This document shows positions 20,386 to 55,273 of a stretch of DNA of 63,315 nucleotides, one piece after another. Where the stretch lies: contig NC_090359.1 in NCBI RefSeq assembly GCF_035084215.1, positions 24,366,001 through 24,429,315 on the forward strand, written 5' to 3'. A program made the translations under genes and the position numbers. Positions within the stretch are counted from its first letter, which is position 1; each line of letters starts with the position of its first letter. The notes below the pieces were generated by a model. The model searched no databases, was not told the origin of the DNA, and saw only the letters and a list, made by a program, of their open reading frames with translations. The stretch comes from Heptranchias perlo. Lineage: Eukaryota.

Positions 20386-20745
20386 CTGCACAGGCAGGAA
20401 TGCTGGTCTCACAATCGCCCTCTACTCTCTCCGTCAAGCCAGGGGCAGACGTGCTTGTAAATTGCAGCTTTAAACTCCGAGTGGCAGAAGCATTCATCGA
20501 CTGGAAACAGGGAAATGTCACACTCGTCACCTGTAAGATCAGGCAAGCGAAAGATTGTTGCACGGTTCCTGAAGACCCGAGATTTAATGTCAGCGTTGAT
20601 TGGAAAACCCAAATCTCCACTTTACAGATCAGGAACGTTGAGCTGAAGGACGACAAGGTTTATTATTGTCACTTGCAGAGAGAAAAACCACTTCCAATCA
20701 AACAGGGACAGGGTGATGGGACAAACCTTACCATCGATGCACAAG
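20386..20745 (+). CDS. Gene B exon 2: germline-joined VJ Ig domain, CD28/CTLA-4/NKp30-like
   Basis: ctctttcag|CT...CAA G|gtaata, phase 1/1. VSQSP, VNCSF, IDWKQ, STLQIRNV, DDKVYYC, KPLP, GQGDGTNLTI. Confidence 0.93.
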
Positions 20746-21924
20746 GTAATACTGCTTCTCGGTGATTTTATAAACAAACAAGAGTAAAGAACTTGCATTT
20801 ATATAGCACATTACATGACCTCAGGATGTCCCAAAACGCTTTACAGCCAATTAAGTACTTTTGAAGTGCAGTCACTGTTGTAATGTAGGAAACGTGGCTG
20901 CCAATTTGCGCACAGCAAGATCCCACAAACAGCAATGAGATAATGACCAGATAATCTGTTTTACTGATGCTGGTTAAGGGATAAACAGGACACCGGGGGA
21001 GAACTCCCCCCGCTCTTCTTCGAAATAGTGGCCATGGGATCTTTTACGTCCACCTGAGAGGGGCAGACGGGGCCTCGGTTTAACGTCTCCTCTGAAAGAC
21101 GGCACCTCCGACAGTGCGGCACTCCCTCAGTACCGGCACTGGGGAGCGTCAGCCTGGATTTTGTGCTCAAGTCTCTGGATTGGGACTTGAACCCACGACC
21201 TTCTGACTCGGAGGGGAGAGTGCGACCCACTGAGCCTCGGCTGACACCTGAGGGGCCTGGGGGCTGGGGTTGGCTAAGTCAGCATTCGATCAGACGGGGT
21301 GGGGGGGAGCTCAGGGGAGTAGGACAGACCAGGGGAGTAGGGCGCACAGCGGCTGCAGTGTGTACCATCCACAGGATGCACTGCAGCTACTCGCCAAGGC
21401 TTCTTCGACAGCACCTCCCAAACCCGCGACCTCTACCACCTAGAAGGTCAAGGGCAGCAGGAACATGGGAACAACACCACCTGCACGTTCCCCTCCAAGT
21501 CACACACCATCCCGAATTGGAAATATATCGGCCGTTCCTTCATTGTCGCTGGGTCAAAATCCTGGAACTCCCTTCCTAACAGCACTGTGGGAGAACCTTC
21601 ACCACACGGACTGCAGCGGTTCAAGGCGGCGGCTCACCACCACCTTCTCAAGGGGCAATTAGAGATGGGCAATAAATGCCGGCCTCGCCAGCGACGCCCA
21701 CATCCCATGAACGAATAAAAAAAAAACAGAAAGTGTGATAGGTTTTTCTCCCCCAACAGTCTGTCCAGATGGAAAGTTCCAGTAGGATTATTAGCCAATC
21801 CAGGACTGAATGTAAAATCGGTCCAAGCAGCCCTGACTTTGGACGAACTGTCGGGAGTGTGATGAGGGACATCTCTCGGTGAAGTGAACCTGCATTTAAT
21901 GTGAAGGTTCGAACTCTTTTTCAG

Positions 21925-22044
21925 ATGAAAGATCACCTGATCTTTATAAGGCTCCGTATTGGACACTGACAGGTCTGCTGGTCGCTGGGATGCCCCTGTG
22001 CGTGTTGTGTATAAGGTGTCTCCTGCTTAAAGGCAACAGACCGG
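21925..22044 (+). CDS. Gene B exon 3: connecting peptide and transmembrane segment
   Basis: ctctttttcag|AT...CCG G|gtaagt gives DERSPDLYKAPYWTLTGLLVAGMPLCVLCIRCLLLKGNRP. Confidence 0.85.
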
Positions 22045-23173
22045 GTAAGTATAGCCTGCCAGTAAATGGTTATTTAAATGTCACAGAACTTACAGACACG
22101 GAGGCGAATGTTAATGCCCGGGGTCCAGTCCTGGGAGCTGCTGAGGAGGTTTATTTCAGTTTGGCTGTAGAAAGACAAATGTTGGCCAGGACACTGGGAG
22201 AACTCCCCTAATCCTCTTCAAATAGTGCTGTGGGATCCCTTCTATCCGTCTGACAGCCATTCACACTCACTGCCCTAGGCTCAGACAATGAGTGACCACT
22301 TACGTGAGGCGCTAGAGGGTCACCCATGGAGTTGGTCCCCCAACAGCAGACAGTGGTGCAGGTTGAGAGACAGATGTTCACCAGGACAAACTCCCCCGCT
22401 CTGCTTCGAAATAGTGCCGCGGAATCTTTAACGGGGCCCCGGTTTAACATCTCATACCGAAAGACGGCATCTCCGACAATGCGGTACCGGCACTGGGAGT
22501 GTCAGCCTCGATTATGGGCTCGAGTCTCGGGAGCGGGGCTCGAAGCAATGACCTTCTGACCCGGGGGGGGGGGGGGGGCAAGAGCAGTACCCACTGAGTC
22601 ACAGCTGACATTCTGTCGGGCTCCCTCCAGTTCCCGACTTCAGGTTGGAGTGATTGTCACTAATTTTGCTGTCAGAACCAAGGCGCACCGTTTGTGCCTC
22701 AGCAATCCTACAGTCCAGATCTCTGCTCCACCAGGCATCAGCCTTACCTTTCTCATTCCTTCTGTCTGTTGCATTGATCCTCCGATGGTCCCTCTCTGAA
22801 CTTCCCACTCTTGTTCCTCCCGAGCTCCAGATATCACACCAATCATTGTCCACGCTCTCCGTGCTGTTTGCGTCCTCGCCGTGTTGAAACAAAGACCCAC
22901 TGCACAGCCTCCATCTCCAACTCATTCTATGCCTTCCTCCTACAACCTTACGGGGCCTCCTTAAGCCCTAAGCTCATTGTTGCCGAGCTATTGCGTTCTG
23001 ATTTACCTCCTCCTCCTCTTTTCAGCCCTACGCTCAGTTAGGGAGATTTGAGAGCAGTGCAAGCTGTATGGATTATGTTTTAAGGGGTTGATATGAAGGA
23101 CCCACTGGCCTTTTCTCCTCCCCCTACCCCCTCCGTTCATTCTTATCTACTGATATTTGTGCGATTCTTGCAG

Positions 23174-23241
23174 GAGCGAGATCAGGATCACAGGAAGGTG
23201 GAGAAGGAGATGACGACTGTACCCGACCAAAGGAGAATAAG
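23174..23241 (+). CDS. Gene B exon 4: cytoplasmic (GC donor)
   Basis: ttcttgcag|GA...AAG|gcaagt gives GARSGSQEGGEGDDDCTRPKENK, phase 1 to 0. Confidence 0.65.
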
Positions 23242-23619
23242 GCAAGTTTGTCCTGCAATTTACAGAGGGCAGTTTCGGTACAAATAAGGGGCTTTTTGCC
23301 ACAAGAAACCTGTCCATTTTTGATGGACCTCACCCCCCGCCCTCTCACCGCACTCTCCAGACCAATTTTAACCATTTGCCTCAGTGCCCATCCCTGATCA
23401 TTTATTTCATGCGGTACATTTGCTGAAACCCTTGGCAACCAGTTAATTTGTTTGTGACCCTTGTACCATTAACATTGTTGTTTGGGATAACTCCAGATGG
23501 TTTTTCTTTCTCCAGGGCCCCATTTACAGGGGTGGGGGGTGGGGGGGCAGTAGGGAGGTGGGGGGAGGTTGGAGGGCGAGAGATTCTGTTGAATCACCAT
23601 TTTCTACCATTAGATATTC

Positions 23620-53029: not shown

Positions 53030-53078
53030 ATGGAGATCTCCAGTGTCATCCTGATCAGCATCTTTTTGTTAATTAAAG
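53030..53078 (+). CDS. Gene D exon 1: signal peptide
   Basis: MEISSVILISIFLLIK G|gtacgt, phase 1. Confidence 0.85.
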
Positions 53079-53949
53079 GTACGTCAATGGGACATCAACA
53101 GAGCAGGTCCTGCATTCTCAAACTTGACTACCTGCCATTCTGTCAATCTAGCTATCTATCTCCTCCTCTTTCTATTTGCCTGTCGGGCTGACAATCTACC
53201 TAACTATAGCATCATCGAACTTTACAGCACAGAAAGAGCCATTCAGCCCATCGTACCTGTGCTGTCTCTCAGAAAGAGCTCTCCTCTTAGTCCCATTCCC
53301 CTTTCCCTTTCTCCGTTCAGCCCATCGTAGCCCATGTGTCCTCTCTCAGAAAGAGCGCTCCACTTAATTCCACTCCCCTGCCTTTTCCCCAAACCCTTTA
53401 AAACTTTTCTATTGCAAATATTCACCCACTTCCTTTTTAAAACCTGTTTTTTTTTTTGGGTTCTAATCCCCGTACGGTTTCTGGTCAGGCATTCCATGTC
53501 CTAACAGCCCTTTGTGTAAAAGGATTTCTCCCATTCTCTCCGTTAGTTGATACCTCAATATTCTTAAATTCCTCCCCTCTAGTTACCAACTCACTGGACA
53601 GTGGGAATAGGTTTTCCCCCCCGAATTTACCTTATCAAAACCTCTCCCAATTTTTGAAAATCTCGACTGAATCTCCTTTCTAGTGAAAAGAGCCCTCGTC
53701 TCTCTCATCTCTCCTCATCTACGCCCTCTCTGTGGCCTTGGGATCCATCATGAAGTGGGGTGCCCAGAACTGGTCTCAATATTCTAACTGCGACCAAGCC
53801 ATCAGTTTGGGTTTATTGTTGCCTCATTGCTTCTGTACTCGGTGTCCTGATTGTATTCCAGCTTTATCAAATTGTCCTCCCACTTTCTATCTGTCTGTCT
53901 ACCCATCGATCTCTACCTCTATCTACTTCAATTTATCTCTCAAAATTCA

Positions 53950-54582
53950 GCATGCTTGGTTTCATTGGTCAGAACATCGAATACAGGAGTTGGGATGTCT
54001 TGTTGAAGTTGTACAAGACATTAGTAAGGCCACACTTGGAATACTGTGTACAGTTCTGGTCACCCTATTATAGAAAGGATATTATTAAACTAGAAAGAGT
54101 ACAGAAAAGATTTACTAGGATGCTACTGGGACTTGATGGTTTGACTTATAGGGAGAGGTTGGACAGACTGAGACTTTTTTCCCTGGAGAGTAGGAGGTTA
54201 AGGGGTGATCTTATAGAAGTCTATAAAATAATGAGGGGCATAGATAAGGTCGATAGTCAAAATCTTTTCCCAAAGGTAGGGGAGTCTATAACGAGGGGGC
54301 ATAGATTTAAGGTGAGAGGGGAGAGATACAAAAGGGTCCAGAGGGGCAATTTTTTCACTCAAAGGGTGGTGAGTGTCTGGAACGAGCTGCCAGAGGCAGT
54401 AGTAGAGGCGGGTACAATTTTGTCTTTTAAAAAGCATTTGGACAGTTACATGGGTAAGATGGGTATAGAGGGATATGGGCCAAGTGCAGGCAATTGGGAC
54501 TAGCTTAGTGGTATAAACTGGGCGACATGGACATGTTGGGCCGAAGGGCCTGTTTCCATGTTGTAAACTTCTATGATTCTAT
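53950..54582 (+). mobile_element. CR1 LINE 3' fragment
   Basis: LYKTLVRPHLEYCVQFWSP and downstream motifs. Confidence 0.92.
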
Positions 54583-54916
54583 GAAAATATATCCGTCAAA
54601 CAGCAATGAGATAAATGACCAGATAATCTGTTTTTCAGTGATGTTGGTTGAGGGATAAATATTGGCCCCAGGACACTGGGGAGAACTCCCCCTGCTCTTC
54701 TTCGAAATAGTGTCCGTGGGATCTTTAACGTCGACCCGAGAGGGCACCTCCGACAGTGCAGCACTCCCTCACTCGGAGTGTCAGCCTGGATTATGTGCTC
54801 AAGTCTCCGGAGTGGGACTTGAACCCACGACCTTCTGGCAAGAGATTGCGACCGACTACGCCGCGCCTGGCACTTTGCCCTAACCCAGTGGCCGGCCTTT
54901 CCTTCTTCTCTTGCAG

Positions 54917-55273
54917 GTGGCCCGGTAAGTGGTGAGGTCCACCAGTCACCGGCCTCGCTCGAAGCCGCAGAAGGCGAAGCCGTGGAGCTGAACTGCCGCT
55001 TCGACGAACCCAGGAACGTCCCCGAGCTCGTGACCTTCCAGTGGAACCTGCCCGCCGGCGAGGTCTACAGAGTGGTGCCGGGCGGCGAGACAACGGGCGG
55101 GACGAGCGGGAGGGTCGCTCTCCGCACGGACCTGGGCACGCGGAGCAGCACGCTGCGCCTCAGCAACACCGGTCCGAATGACAGCGGGGTCTACGTGTGC
55201 GTCATCCAGCTCCTGGAGCCTCTGCCCATAATTCAGATGGAGGGGAGCGGCACCCAGCTGCGGGTCGTACGAG
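54917..55273 (+). CDS. Gene D exon 2: germline-joined VJ Ig domain, CD28/CTLA-4/NKp30-like
   Basis: ctcttgcag|GT...CGA G|gtacgg, phase 1/1. VHQSP, LNCRF, FQWN, STLRLSN, DSGVYVC, EPLP, EGSGTQLRV. Confidence 0.93.

What the first reader, a model, noticed from the sequence alone, without database searches (positions are those of the whole stretch)
20660..55265. Both VJ domains carry PLPI in the register of the MYPPPY ligand-binding loop
Gene B reads CHLQREKPLPIKQGQGDGT (near 20660-20725) and gene D reads CVIQLLEPLPIIQMEGSGT (near 55198-55255). Both align without gaps to human CTLA-4 CKVELMYPPPYYLGIGNGT (recalled sequence), with Pro at +7 and +9 from the F-strand Cys and a J-like GxGT. The domains are otherwise very divergent, so the shared PLPI suggests selection on a B7-binding FG loop and may define a 'PLP' subfamily.
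Basis: partly seen in the sequence, partly recalled or inferred. Interest (0 to 1): 0.7.

Follow-up and report, generated by a model that had tools for sequence, protein, structure and literature searches.

The report
Unnamed shark CD28-like receptor cluster
Two shark immune-receptor genes carry a proline-leucine-proline-isoleucine loop exactly where the checkpoint receptor CTLA-4 has its ligand-binding loop; they likely belong to an unnamed receptor family shared with amphibians, and one of them is predicted to grip a B7-like protein encoded next door.

Summary
Observation confirmed: both single-exon VJ domains read C-x6-PLPI-x4-GxGT, in register with CTLA-4's MYPPPY loop. The window is sevengill shark; gene D is RefSeq XP_067827942.1. 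Two sequences alone prove little, since a 4-residue identical run arises in 43% of shuffles. But PLPI is kept in 9 of 9 gene-D orthologues from chimaera to rays, PLP in 10 of 10 amphibian-type relatives, and all four codons differ at the third base between B and D. Gene B is spliced and likely ends in an ITIM-like motif plus an ITSM; gene D has a repeat stalk and a tyrosine-free tail. Neither fits the nine CD28-family members described in 2024. A predicted complex docks gene B's PLPI loop on the front face of a B7/butyrophilin-like domain 18 kb upstream (score 0.72, best control 0.01), though this may echo solved CTLA-4:B7 structures. Against: B's ray orthologue has PVPI; PLP also occurs in three described CD28-family proteins; support for one PLP clade is weak (69/77); binding is untested; the shark NCR3 paper could not be read. 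Verdict: likely an unnamed paired CD28-like receptor lineage with a candidate linked ligand.

The parts
2475..2822 (+). Gene A, first Ig exon: B7/butyrophilin-like V domain without a J-like GxG; candidate ligand
   Evidence: Phase-1 AG/GT exon; Pfam V-set 1.9e-10; best PDB sequence hits CD276 (two-domain sum 9.4e-8) and BTN3A (4e-6); predicted partner of gene B. Leader, transmembrane exon and splicing not established.
6898..7215 (+). Second Ig-like exon (short, Cys-rich, V-like), inferred to belong to gene A
   Evidence: Phase-1 AG/GT exon; only a weak V-set hit, E 0.0092; no informative PDB hit. Link to the first exon is inference.
17758..17824 (+). Gene B leader exon
   Evidence: Contig X2 record 8 runs from this exon into the V exon; tblastn with the ray orthologue's leader, E 0.011; GT donor, phase 1.
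20386..20745 (+). Gene B single-exon VJ domain (PLPI at 20688-20699)
   Evidence: spliced to the next exon in 4 of 4 runs of one sample; AlphaFold2 mean pLDDT 93.9, motif in the F-G loop.
21925..22044 (+). Gene B short stalk and transmembrane exon
   Evidence: GT-AG joints on both sides in 4 of 4 runs; hydrophobic segment.
23174..23241 (+). Gene B first cytoplasmic exon (GC donor)
   Evidence: Joint from 22044 seen, with 69 letters on the shorter side in 3 of 4 runs; AG acceptor, GC donor.
26309..26488 (+). Gene B inferred last coding exon with AIYSQI (ITIM-like) and TLYEQI (ITSM consensus); AATAAA at 26714
   Evidence: Gives a 264-aa open frame; matches the end of the ray orthologue (weak E); leftover contig lengths imply 3' ends at 26710-26735, around the AATAAA. 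The joint itself lay outside the stretch laid.
45371..45520 (+). Gene C exon, LECT2-like (peptidase M23 fold); synteny marker
   Evidence: tblastn 57% identity to the front of horn-shark model XP_067879862, which fuses this to family V domains; Pfam Peptidase_M23 E 4.5e-5, below the curated cut-off. The name LECT2 is recalled.
52952..53078 (+). Gene D leader exon (RefSeq start 52952; second ATG at 53030)
   Evidence: 100% match to XP_067827942.1 residues 1-43; GT donor.
54917..55273 (+). Gene D single-exon VJ domain (PLPI at 55219-55230)
   Evidence: AlphaFold2 mean pLDDT 91.1, motif between strands F and G.
57596..57649 (+). Gene D stalk repeat exon 1 (54 nt)
61448..61501 (+). Gene D stalk repeat exon 2 (54 nt)
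62440..62493 (+). Gene D stalk repeat exon 3 (54 nt); transmembrane segment and tail lie beyond the window

Best explanation
Genes B and D are single-exon VJ membrane receptors of a likely unnamed CD28-like lineage shared by cartilaginous fish and amphibians, whose conserved P-L-P-I loop is predicted to bind the front face of a B7-type ligand as CTLA-4's MYPPPY loop does. Shown: the exon structure and splicing of four exons of B, the loop position, its conservation, and relatives on the same chromosomes. Predicted: the loop docks on the C, C', C'', F and G strands of the B7/butyrophilin-like domain of neighbouring gene A. Inferred: ligand binding leads to phosphorylation of B's two tail tyrosines and recruitment of SHP-type phosphatases, a PD-1-like brake. 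Also inferred: D, with the same loop on a longer stalk and no tyrosine motif, acts as a non-signalling competitor or adhesion partner for the same or a related ligand, making the cluster a paired-receptor locus.
For: Motif register confirmed against the published CTLA-4 row; that loop is the B7-binding site of CD28/CTLA-4 (PMC2191786 abstract; bioRxiv 10.64898/2026.03.30.715283 passages). PLPI in 9 of 9 D orthologues and PLP in 10 of 10 amphibian-type domains (8 named amphibian, 2 unnamed that group with frogs). With the loop removed from the alignment, D orthologues form a clade (99/99), B pairs with a ray protein (100/99), D joins short-tailed frog and caecilian proteins (86/83), and all 32 family domains fall on one side of a branch (69/77). 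ITIM or ITSM consensus motifs occur in 6 relatives (P0010, P0140, P0103, P0062, P0091, P0100) and in none of the 9 D-lineage models scanned. B and D orthologues share one 182-Mb contig in Hypanus; D and multi-V relatives share one in horn shark; two caecilian relatives share one. Predicted B:A complex: score 0.72, best of 3 controls 0.01; runs agree in at least 90% of contacts, partner pLDDT at least 86; 18 of the 25 best-determined contact pairs come from P-L-P-I. That mark was reached by 51 of 78 solved complexes and 2 of 108 mismatched pairs (microbes), and on eukaryotes by 71 of 105 solved and 2 of 126 unrelated pairs.
Against: No binding or signalling is measured. The predicted complex resembles solved CTLA-4/CD28:B7 complexes, so the pass may come from memory. 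The controls were unrelated proteins, not other Ig domains, and 7 of 44 blind neighbour pairs pass this test, so it does not single out gene A. Gene A's second domain is not a B7-type C domain and no leader or membrane anchor was established. The motif varies (PVPI in B's ray orthologue; PLPI in 17 of 32), and PLP occurs in three described CD28-family proteins. Clade support is weak (69/77), with 95 columns and only one CD28/ICOS-type reference, on a very long branch; placing B with it is not rejected (p-AU 0.525). Distant relatives were retrieved with a query containing the motif (E 1.6e-9 to 1.9e-4), which favours sequences that share it. Folds and sequences match TCR V domains best; CD28 (Z 13.1, rmsd 2.5, 110 aligned) and PD-1 (Z 13.2, rmsd 2.4, 101 aligned) rank among generic V domains for D. 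B's first tyrosine motif has Ala at -2, so it is not a consensus ITIM.
Confidence: 0.55

Rival explanations
1. B and D are divergent members of the shark NCR3/NKp30 family, possibly already listed among the nurse-shark subtypes, and would bind B7-H6-like ligands.
For: Single-exon VJ domains in a tandem cluster; several NCR3 copies lie on shark MHC chromosomes; eight nurse-shark NCR3 accessions are cited in PMC12227049; that they are highly divergent is recalled from a paper that was not held.
Against: GxG lies at +15 from the Cys in 28 of 32 family domains; the short NKp30 loop without prolines (GxG near +12) is recalled. Unnamed hits with such short loops fall outside the 32-domain group. None of the names returned for family members is NCR3-like, whereas sawfish MHC copies are so named.
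Confidence: 0.15
2. The loop is conserved for another reason: it binds a non-B7 ligand, mediates homophilic or B-D pairing, or is a structural turn inherited from the VJ ancestor.
For: Pro at +7 is widespread in CD28H-type and V-C1 proteins; best sequence and fold matches are TCR V domains; D has a long stalk and no signalling motif.
Against: The residue before GxG is Gln in B and Glu in D, not the Phe of the J consensus FGxGT, so antibody-like V-V pairing is unlikely (sequence; consensus; role of that Phe recalled). The exposed Leu and Ile are invariant in D. The predicted B:A interface is centred on this loop.
Confidence: 0.2
3. B or D is an unrecognised orthologue of a described CD28-family gene, for example B as the missing chondrichthyan CD28HL3, or CD28X.
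For: CD28HL3 has an ITIM/ITSM tail and was not detected in Chondrichthyes; bichir CD28HL3 has P-S-P at +7 to +9 with GxG at +15; CD28X has YxCx6PPPx4/5GxG.
Against: No EIP, no hydrophobic residue at +6 (Lys in B, Glu in D), no PPP, no YEDM or YxNM, no YxxxxT in the membrane segment. PF15910 hits 0 of 21 family members at E 0.1 but hits a CD28/ICOS-type control at 8e-10. EIP-type sequences form their own clade (99/97). No PLPI, LEPLP, KPVP, HSPLP or LOC121851470 in the 9 supplements of PMC11599192.
Confidence: 0.1

Closest known systems
CD28/CTLA-4/ICOS and their three chondrichthyan co-orthologues (PMC11599192)
   Same: One V domain, membrane segment and tail; prolines at +7 and +9 and GxG at +15 in the same register; one skate member and gar ICOS also read PLP.
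   Different: No Met/Tyr around the prolines, no YxxxxT dimer motif, no YxNM/YxxM tail motif, no PF15910 match; B has an inhibitory-type tail and D none; neighbours are a B7-like gene, a LECT2-like gene and tRNAs.
CD28H (TMIGD2), CD28HL1-3 and CD28X
   Same: Pro at +7 and GxG; CD28HL3 has an ITIM/ITSM tail like gene B; CD28X has the same loop length.
   Different: No EIP or PPP, no YEDM or YxNV; separate branch in the loop-free tree; family includes two- and three-V forms and lies in clusters.
PD-1
   Same: Single V domain with two tandem tail tyrosine motifs, the second an ITSM (gene B).
   Different: PD-1 has no conserved CDR3 prolines and no GxG; its tail consensus (I/V)(D/E)YG(E/V)L and (T/V)EYATI is absent; the tyrosines are 15 residues apart in B, closer than in PD-1.
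NCR3/NKp30 family
   Same: Non-rearranging single-exon VJ receptor in multigene clusters, with a B7-family ligand (recalled).
   Different: Longer proline-containing FG loop; MHC linkage not shown; no charged residue inside D's membrane segment.
B7-H3 (CD276) and BTN3A, for gene A
   Same: Best PDB sequence matches; shared W-Q, VH, Q, Y-x-x-R-T and D-x-G-x-Y-x-C-x-V features in the CD276 alignment.
   Different: Weak scores, extra cysteines, second domain not C-type, membrane anchor not found.

Membership tests
CD28 family (definition of PMC11599192) | IgV-transmembrane-cytoplasmic architecture with one V domain | tested here: met
   B: 5 exons, 264 aa (last exon inferred). D: RefSeq model. 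Some relatives have 2-3 V domains.
CD28 family (definition of PMC11599192) | Proline motif in the CDR3/FG loop, often with G-strand GxG | tested here: met
CD28 family (definition of PMC11599192) | Location in one of the described synteny blocks | tested here: inconclusive
   The genes recognised in the 63-kb window are A, B, C, D and two tRNAs; the published markers were not searched for, and no genome is held to look further.
CD28 family (definition of PMC11599192) | Binds a B7-family ligand | not testable with these tools
   Only predicted: 0.72 against best control 0.01 with gene A; may reflect likeness to solved complexes.
CD28/CTLA-4/ICOS subgroup | [MLI][YF]PPPY-type loop, YxxxxT membrane motif, YxNM/YxxM tail, PF15910 | tested here: not met
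   Sequence of B and D; PF15910 hits 0 of 21 family members, control 8e-10.
CD28H/CD28HL1-3 | E-I-P (or [IAVL]-P at +6/+7) in CDR3 | tested here: not met
   +6 is Lys in B and Glu in D; EIP-type rows form a separate clade.
CD28X | PPP loop and cytoplasmic YEDM | tested here: not met
PD-1 | Proline-free CDR3; (I/V)(D/E)YG(E/V)L plus (T/V)EYATI tail | tested here: not met
NCR3/NKp30 | Single-exon VJ domain | tested here: met
NCR3/NKp30 | Clusters with named NCR3 sequences | tested here: inconclusive
   No named NCR3 sequence was available; short-loop stand-ins were chosen by a recalled motif and lie outside the group with weak support.
NCR3/NKp30 | MHC linkage | tested here: inconclusive
   The MHC-chromosome gene lists of PMC10751288 hold no LECT2 or chemotaxin entry, but the whole-chromosome lists are of species for which I had no family accession.
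B7/butyrophilin family (gene A) | B7/BTN-type N-terminal V domain | tested here: met
   25 best of 32 PDB hits are CD276 or BTN3A; Atlas second cluster is BTN3A2-like, 0.95; scores are weak.
B7/butyrophilin family (gene A) | Membrane-proximal C-type Ig domain | tested here: not met
   The second exon hits only V-set weakly and no C1/C2 model at E 1; so gene A is called B7-like, not a B7 member.
B7/butyrophilin family (gene A) | Leader and transmembrane segment | tested here: inconclusive
   No leader candidate in 1-2470; one unverified hydrophobic frame near 14487.

The most novel reading that the evidence does not exclude
The window holds a self-contained checkpoint cassette: a B7-like ligand gene sitting beside its own PD-1-like inhibitory receptor (B) and a tail-less decoy (D) that share one binding loop. 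It would represent a tenth CD28-family lineage, present in the ancestor of jawed vertebrates, kept in cartilaginous fish and amphibians, and a living example of the ancestral linkage of B7-type ligands with VJ receptors.
Probability: 0.25. Interest if true: 0.78.

Novelty: new variant of a known kind. Interest (0 to 1): 0.58.

Why it matters
The 2024 survey of the CD28 family (PMC11599192) lists nine members and says it found no trace of the family's origin, while linking it to VJ-type receptors through the GxG motif. A further lineage whose V domains look most like TCR V domains, yet carry a CTLA-4-register proline loop, and that comes as inhibitory and tail-less forms in clusters from chimaeras to frogs, would extend that family and bridge it to other VJ receptors. 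A candidate ligand encoded in the same window makes the idea directly testable with two recombinant domains, and the Xenopus laevis relative (XP_041441456) offers a laboratory model.

Tried and rejected
No genome was held, so wider synteny could not be read. The word-index protein search with gene B found nothing among 246 candidates; its orthologue came from the gene-D search. The profile search scored only 8000 candidates and added no new family member. PDB sequence and fold searches were filled by TCR and antibody V domains; CTLA-4, ICOS and NKp30 were not among the rows shown, which excludes nothing. ESM Atlas gave generic V-set clusters; the first for gene D is auto-named PD-1 family at 0.95, tied with others, and was not taken as evidence. 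AU tests of B+D alone and of B with the CD28/ICOS-type row were uninformative. No RNA holder on record was listed; the four runs laid are one sample, RNA by guess, and contigs cannot rank expression. Considered and set aside: a CD8-like B-D heterodimer (J-position Phe absent; not modelled) and recent gene conversion as the source of the shared motif (all four codons differ). Literature searches that found no description of this family: and supplement searches. Earlier scan findings: none. The 54-row tree left out one TCR-like and one truncated row, and all hits lacking a J-like end or not chosen as references.

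
Full report
Observation. The pattern C-x6-P-x-P-x5-G-x-GT has 2 matches in six frames, each in a single phase-1 V-set exon. AlphaFold2 models (mean pLDDT 91.1 and 93.9) put the motif between strands F and G. The CTLA-4 register is confirmed from a published table. The pairwise match by itself is weak: at 33 of 112 identities, a run of four occurs in 43% of shuffles.

What the locus is. Gene D is identical to a Heptranchias perlo RefSeq protein, XP_067827942.1, named uncharacterized: leader, VJ exon, three 54-nt stalk exons, then a membrane segment and a tyrosine-free tail beyond the window. 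Gene B had no database match of its own. Contigs of four runs of one sample join its V, membrane and first tail exons with GT-AG joints, and one contig also carries the leader. A last exon at 26309 completes a 264-residue frame ending in AIYSQI and TLYEQI; the unlaid contig lengths imply ends at 26710-26735, next to an AATAAA at 26714. That last joint is inferred. Upstream lies gene A, whose first Ig exon matches CD276 and BTN3A best among solved structures, followed by an atypical second Ig exon. Between B and D lie a LECT2-like exon (name recalled) and two tRNA genes.

The family. A full-library search with gene D gave 131 hits, from which I took 30 family domains, 32 with B and D. Those named are uncharacterized or generically named proteins of sharks, rays, a chimaera, caecilian, salamanders and frogs; four proteins in the set (P0025, P0085, P0089, P0103) stayed unnamed. 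In a 54-row tree built without the FG loop, D orthologues form a clade including the chimaera (99/99), B pairs with a stingray protein (100/99; 49 of 118 identical), D joins short-tailed frog and caecilian proteins (86/83), and the 32 domains lie on one side of a weakly supported branch (69/77). PLPI is in 9 of 9 D orthologues, PLP in 10 of 10 amphibian-type domains, and over all 32: PLPI 17, PLP 22, P-x-P 25, Pro+7 31. The four PLPI codons of B and D all differ at the third base. Tails split into ITIM/ITSM-bearing and motif-free forms. B and D orthologues share a contig in Hypanus, and a horn-shark gene model fuses the LECT2-like neighbour to family V domains, so the cluster is old. Caveats: distant members were found with a motif-bearing query; B's ray orthologue has PVPI; absence from other vertebrates was not tested.

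How it likely works. In CD28 and CTLA-4 this loop is the B7-binding site (PMC2191786, abstract seen; bioRxiv 10.64898/2026.03.30.715283, passages seen). I folded B's V domain with A's V domain once (single sequences; the alignment was not used): score 0.72, best of 3 controls 0.01, at least 90% contact agreement between runs, partner pLDDT at least 86. The mark was reached by 51 of 78 solved and 2 of 108 mismatched microbial pairs, and on eukaryotes by 71 of 105 solved pairs (39 of 65 with no like complex, 12 of 29 with small interfaces) and 2 of 126 unrelated pairs. The interface on B is P101-L102-P103-I104-K105 plus F36, K50, Q97 and E99, with 18 of the 25 best pairs from PLPI; on A it is T35, Q37, 43-46, A49, S53, A55, Y94, R96, E100, K102 and S103, the front sheet. 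This is the CTLA-4:B7 geometry, so the model may be recalling it; it shows likeness and does not prove that A is the ligand. From established ITIM/ITSM biology (PMC12151841, passages seen) B would be inhibitory; D would compete or adhere without signalling. These steps are inference.

Comparison with known families. PMC11599192 (main text parts 1-5 of 6, Supplements 2 and 4 whole, part 1 of 12 of Supplement 3, and text searches of all nine; its synteny figures are pictures that I could not see) defines nine members. B and D meet the general architecture and loop criteria but fail the specific motifs of each, and the ICOS-type Pfam model hits 0 of 21 family members against 8e-10 for a control. 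PLP at +7 to +9 is not unique, being in gar ICOS, one skate CD28/CTLA4 homologue and paddlefish CD28HL2; PLPI had 0 occurrences in the supplements. Folds are closest to TCR V domains, with CD28 and PD-1 among many tied V domains. NCR3 remains the main identity risk: the nurse-shark NCR3 paper and the 2019 Xenopus survey of VJ genes were not held (nothing seen, recalled only). PMC12227049 (parts 1-2 of 8, passages, supplement search) and PMC10751288 (passages, supplement searches) did not mention these genes. For PMC3964593 I searched one supplementary file only, with no hits.

Verdict. The motif is real and conserved, and it marks, imperfectly, a receptor lineage that I could not find described in the searches listed. 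It works like a CD28-family loop by position and by prediction; membership of a named CD28 subgroup is not met. Confidence in a B7-type ligand is about 0.55, and in gene A as a true linked ligand about 0.25-0.3. Interest 0.58.

Noticed in passing
window 2475-2822 and 6898-7215: Gene A: B7/butyrophilin-like V exon with four extra cysteines, and a short Cys-rich second Ig exon with no clear relative; leader and membrane anchor not found.
   Followed up: partly
window 45371-45520: LECT2-like (peptidase M23) exon between B and D; a horn-shark gene model fuses the same gene to three family V domains, so the neighbourhood is conserved.
   Followed up: partly
window 47714-47873: tRNA-Glu(CTC) and tRNA-Lys(CTT) genes, 15 bases apart on the minus strand.
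   Followed up: no
window 23242: Gene B's fourth intron appears to start with a GC donor (GC-AG intron).
   Followed up: partly
window 20386-20745: Gene B's V domain has three extra cysteines in the C'-C'' region and Lys in place of the usual Gly of D-x-G-x-Y-x-C.
   Followed up: no
window 57596-62493: Gene D's stalk is built from 54-nt exon repeats whose number differs between shark species.
   Followed up: partly
P0006 and P0007 (ray gene models): In two rays the D-type V domain is followed by one or two further family V domains before the D-type tail; either real multi-domain forms or fused models.
   Followed up: no
P0056 and P0129: V-C1 proteins (one from Callorhinchus milii) with an IPPP loop in the same register that hit the ICOS V-set model (best E 2.3e-8); one tested LOC id was not in the supplements of PMC11599192.
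   Followed up: partly
window 10700-14490: Long C-rich minisatellite arrays giving proline-rich open frames, one of which runs into a hydrophobic stretch near 14487; coding status unknown.
   Followed up: no
window 36256-36426 (minus strand): Weak match to the first 50 residues of horn-shark model P0010; probably a shared repeat or a mis-modelled exon.
   Followed up: no
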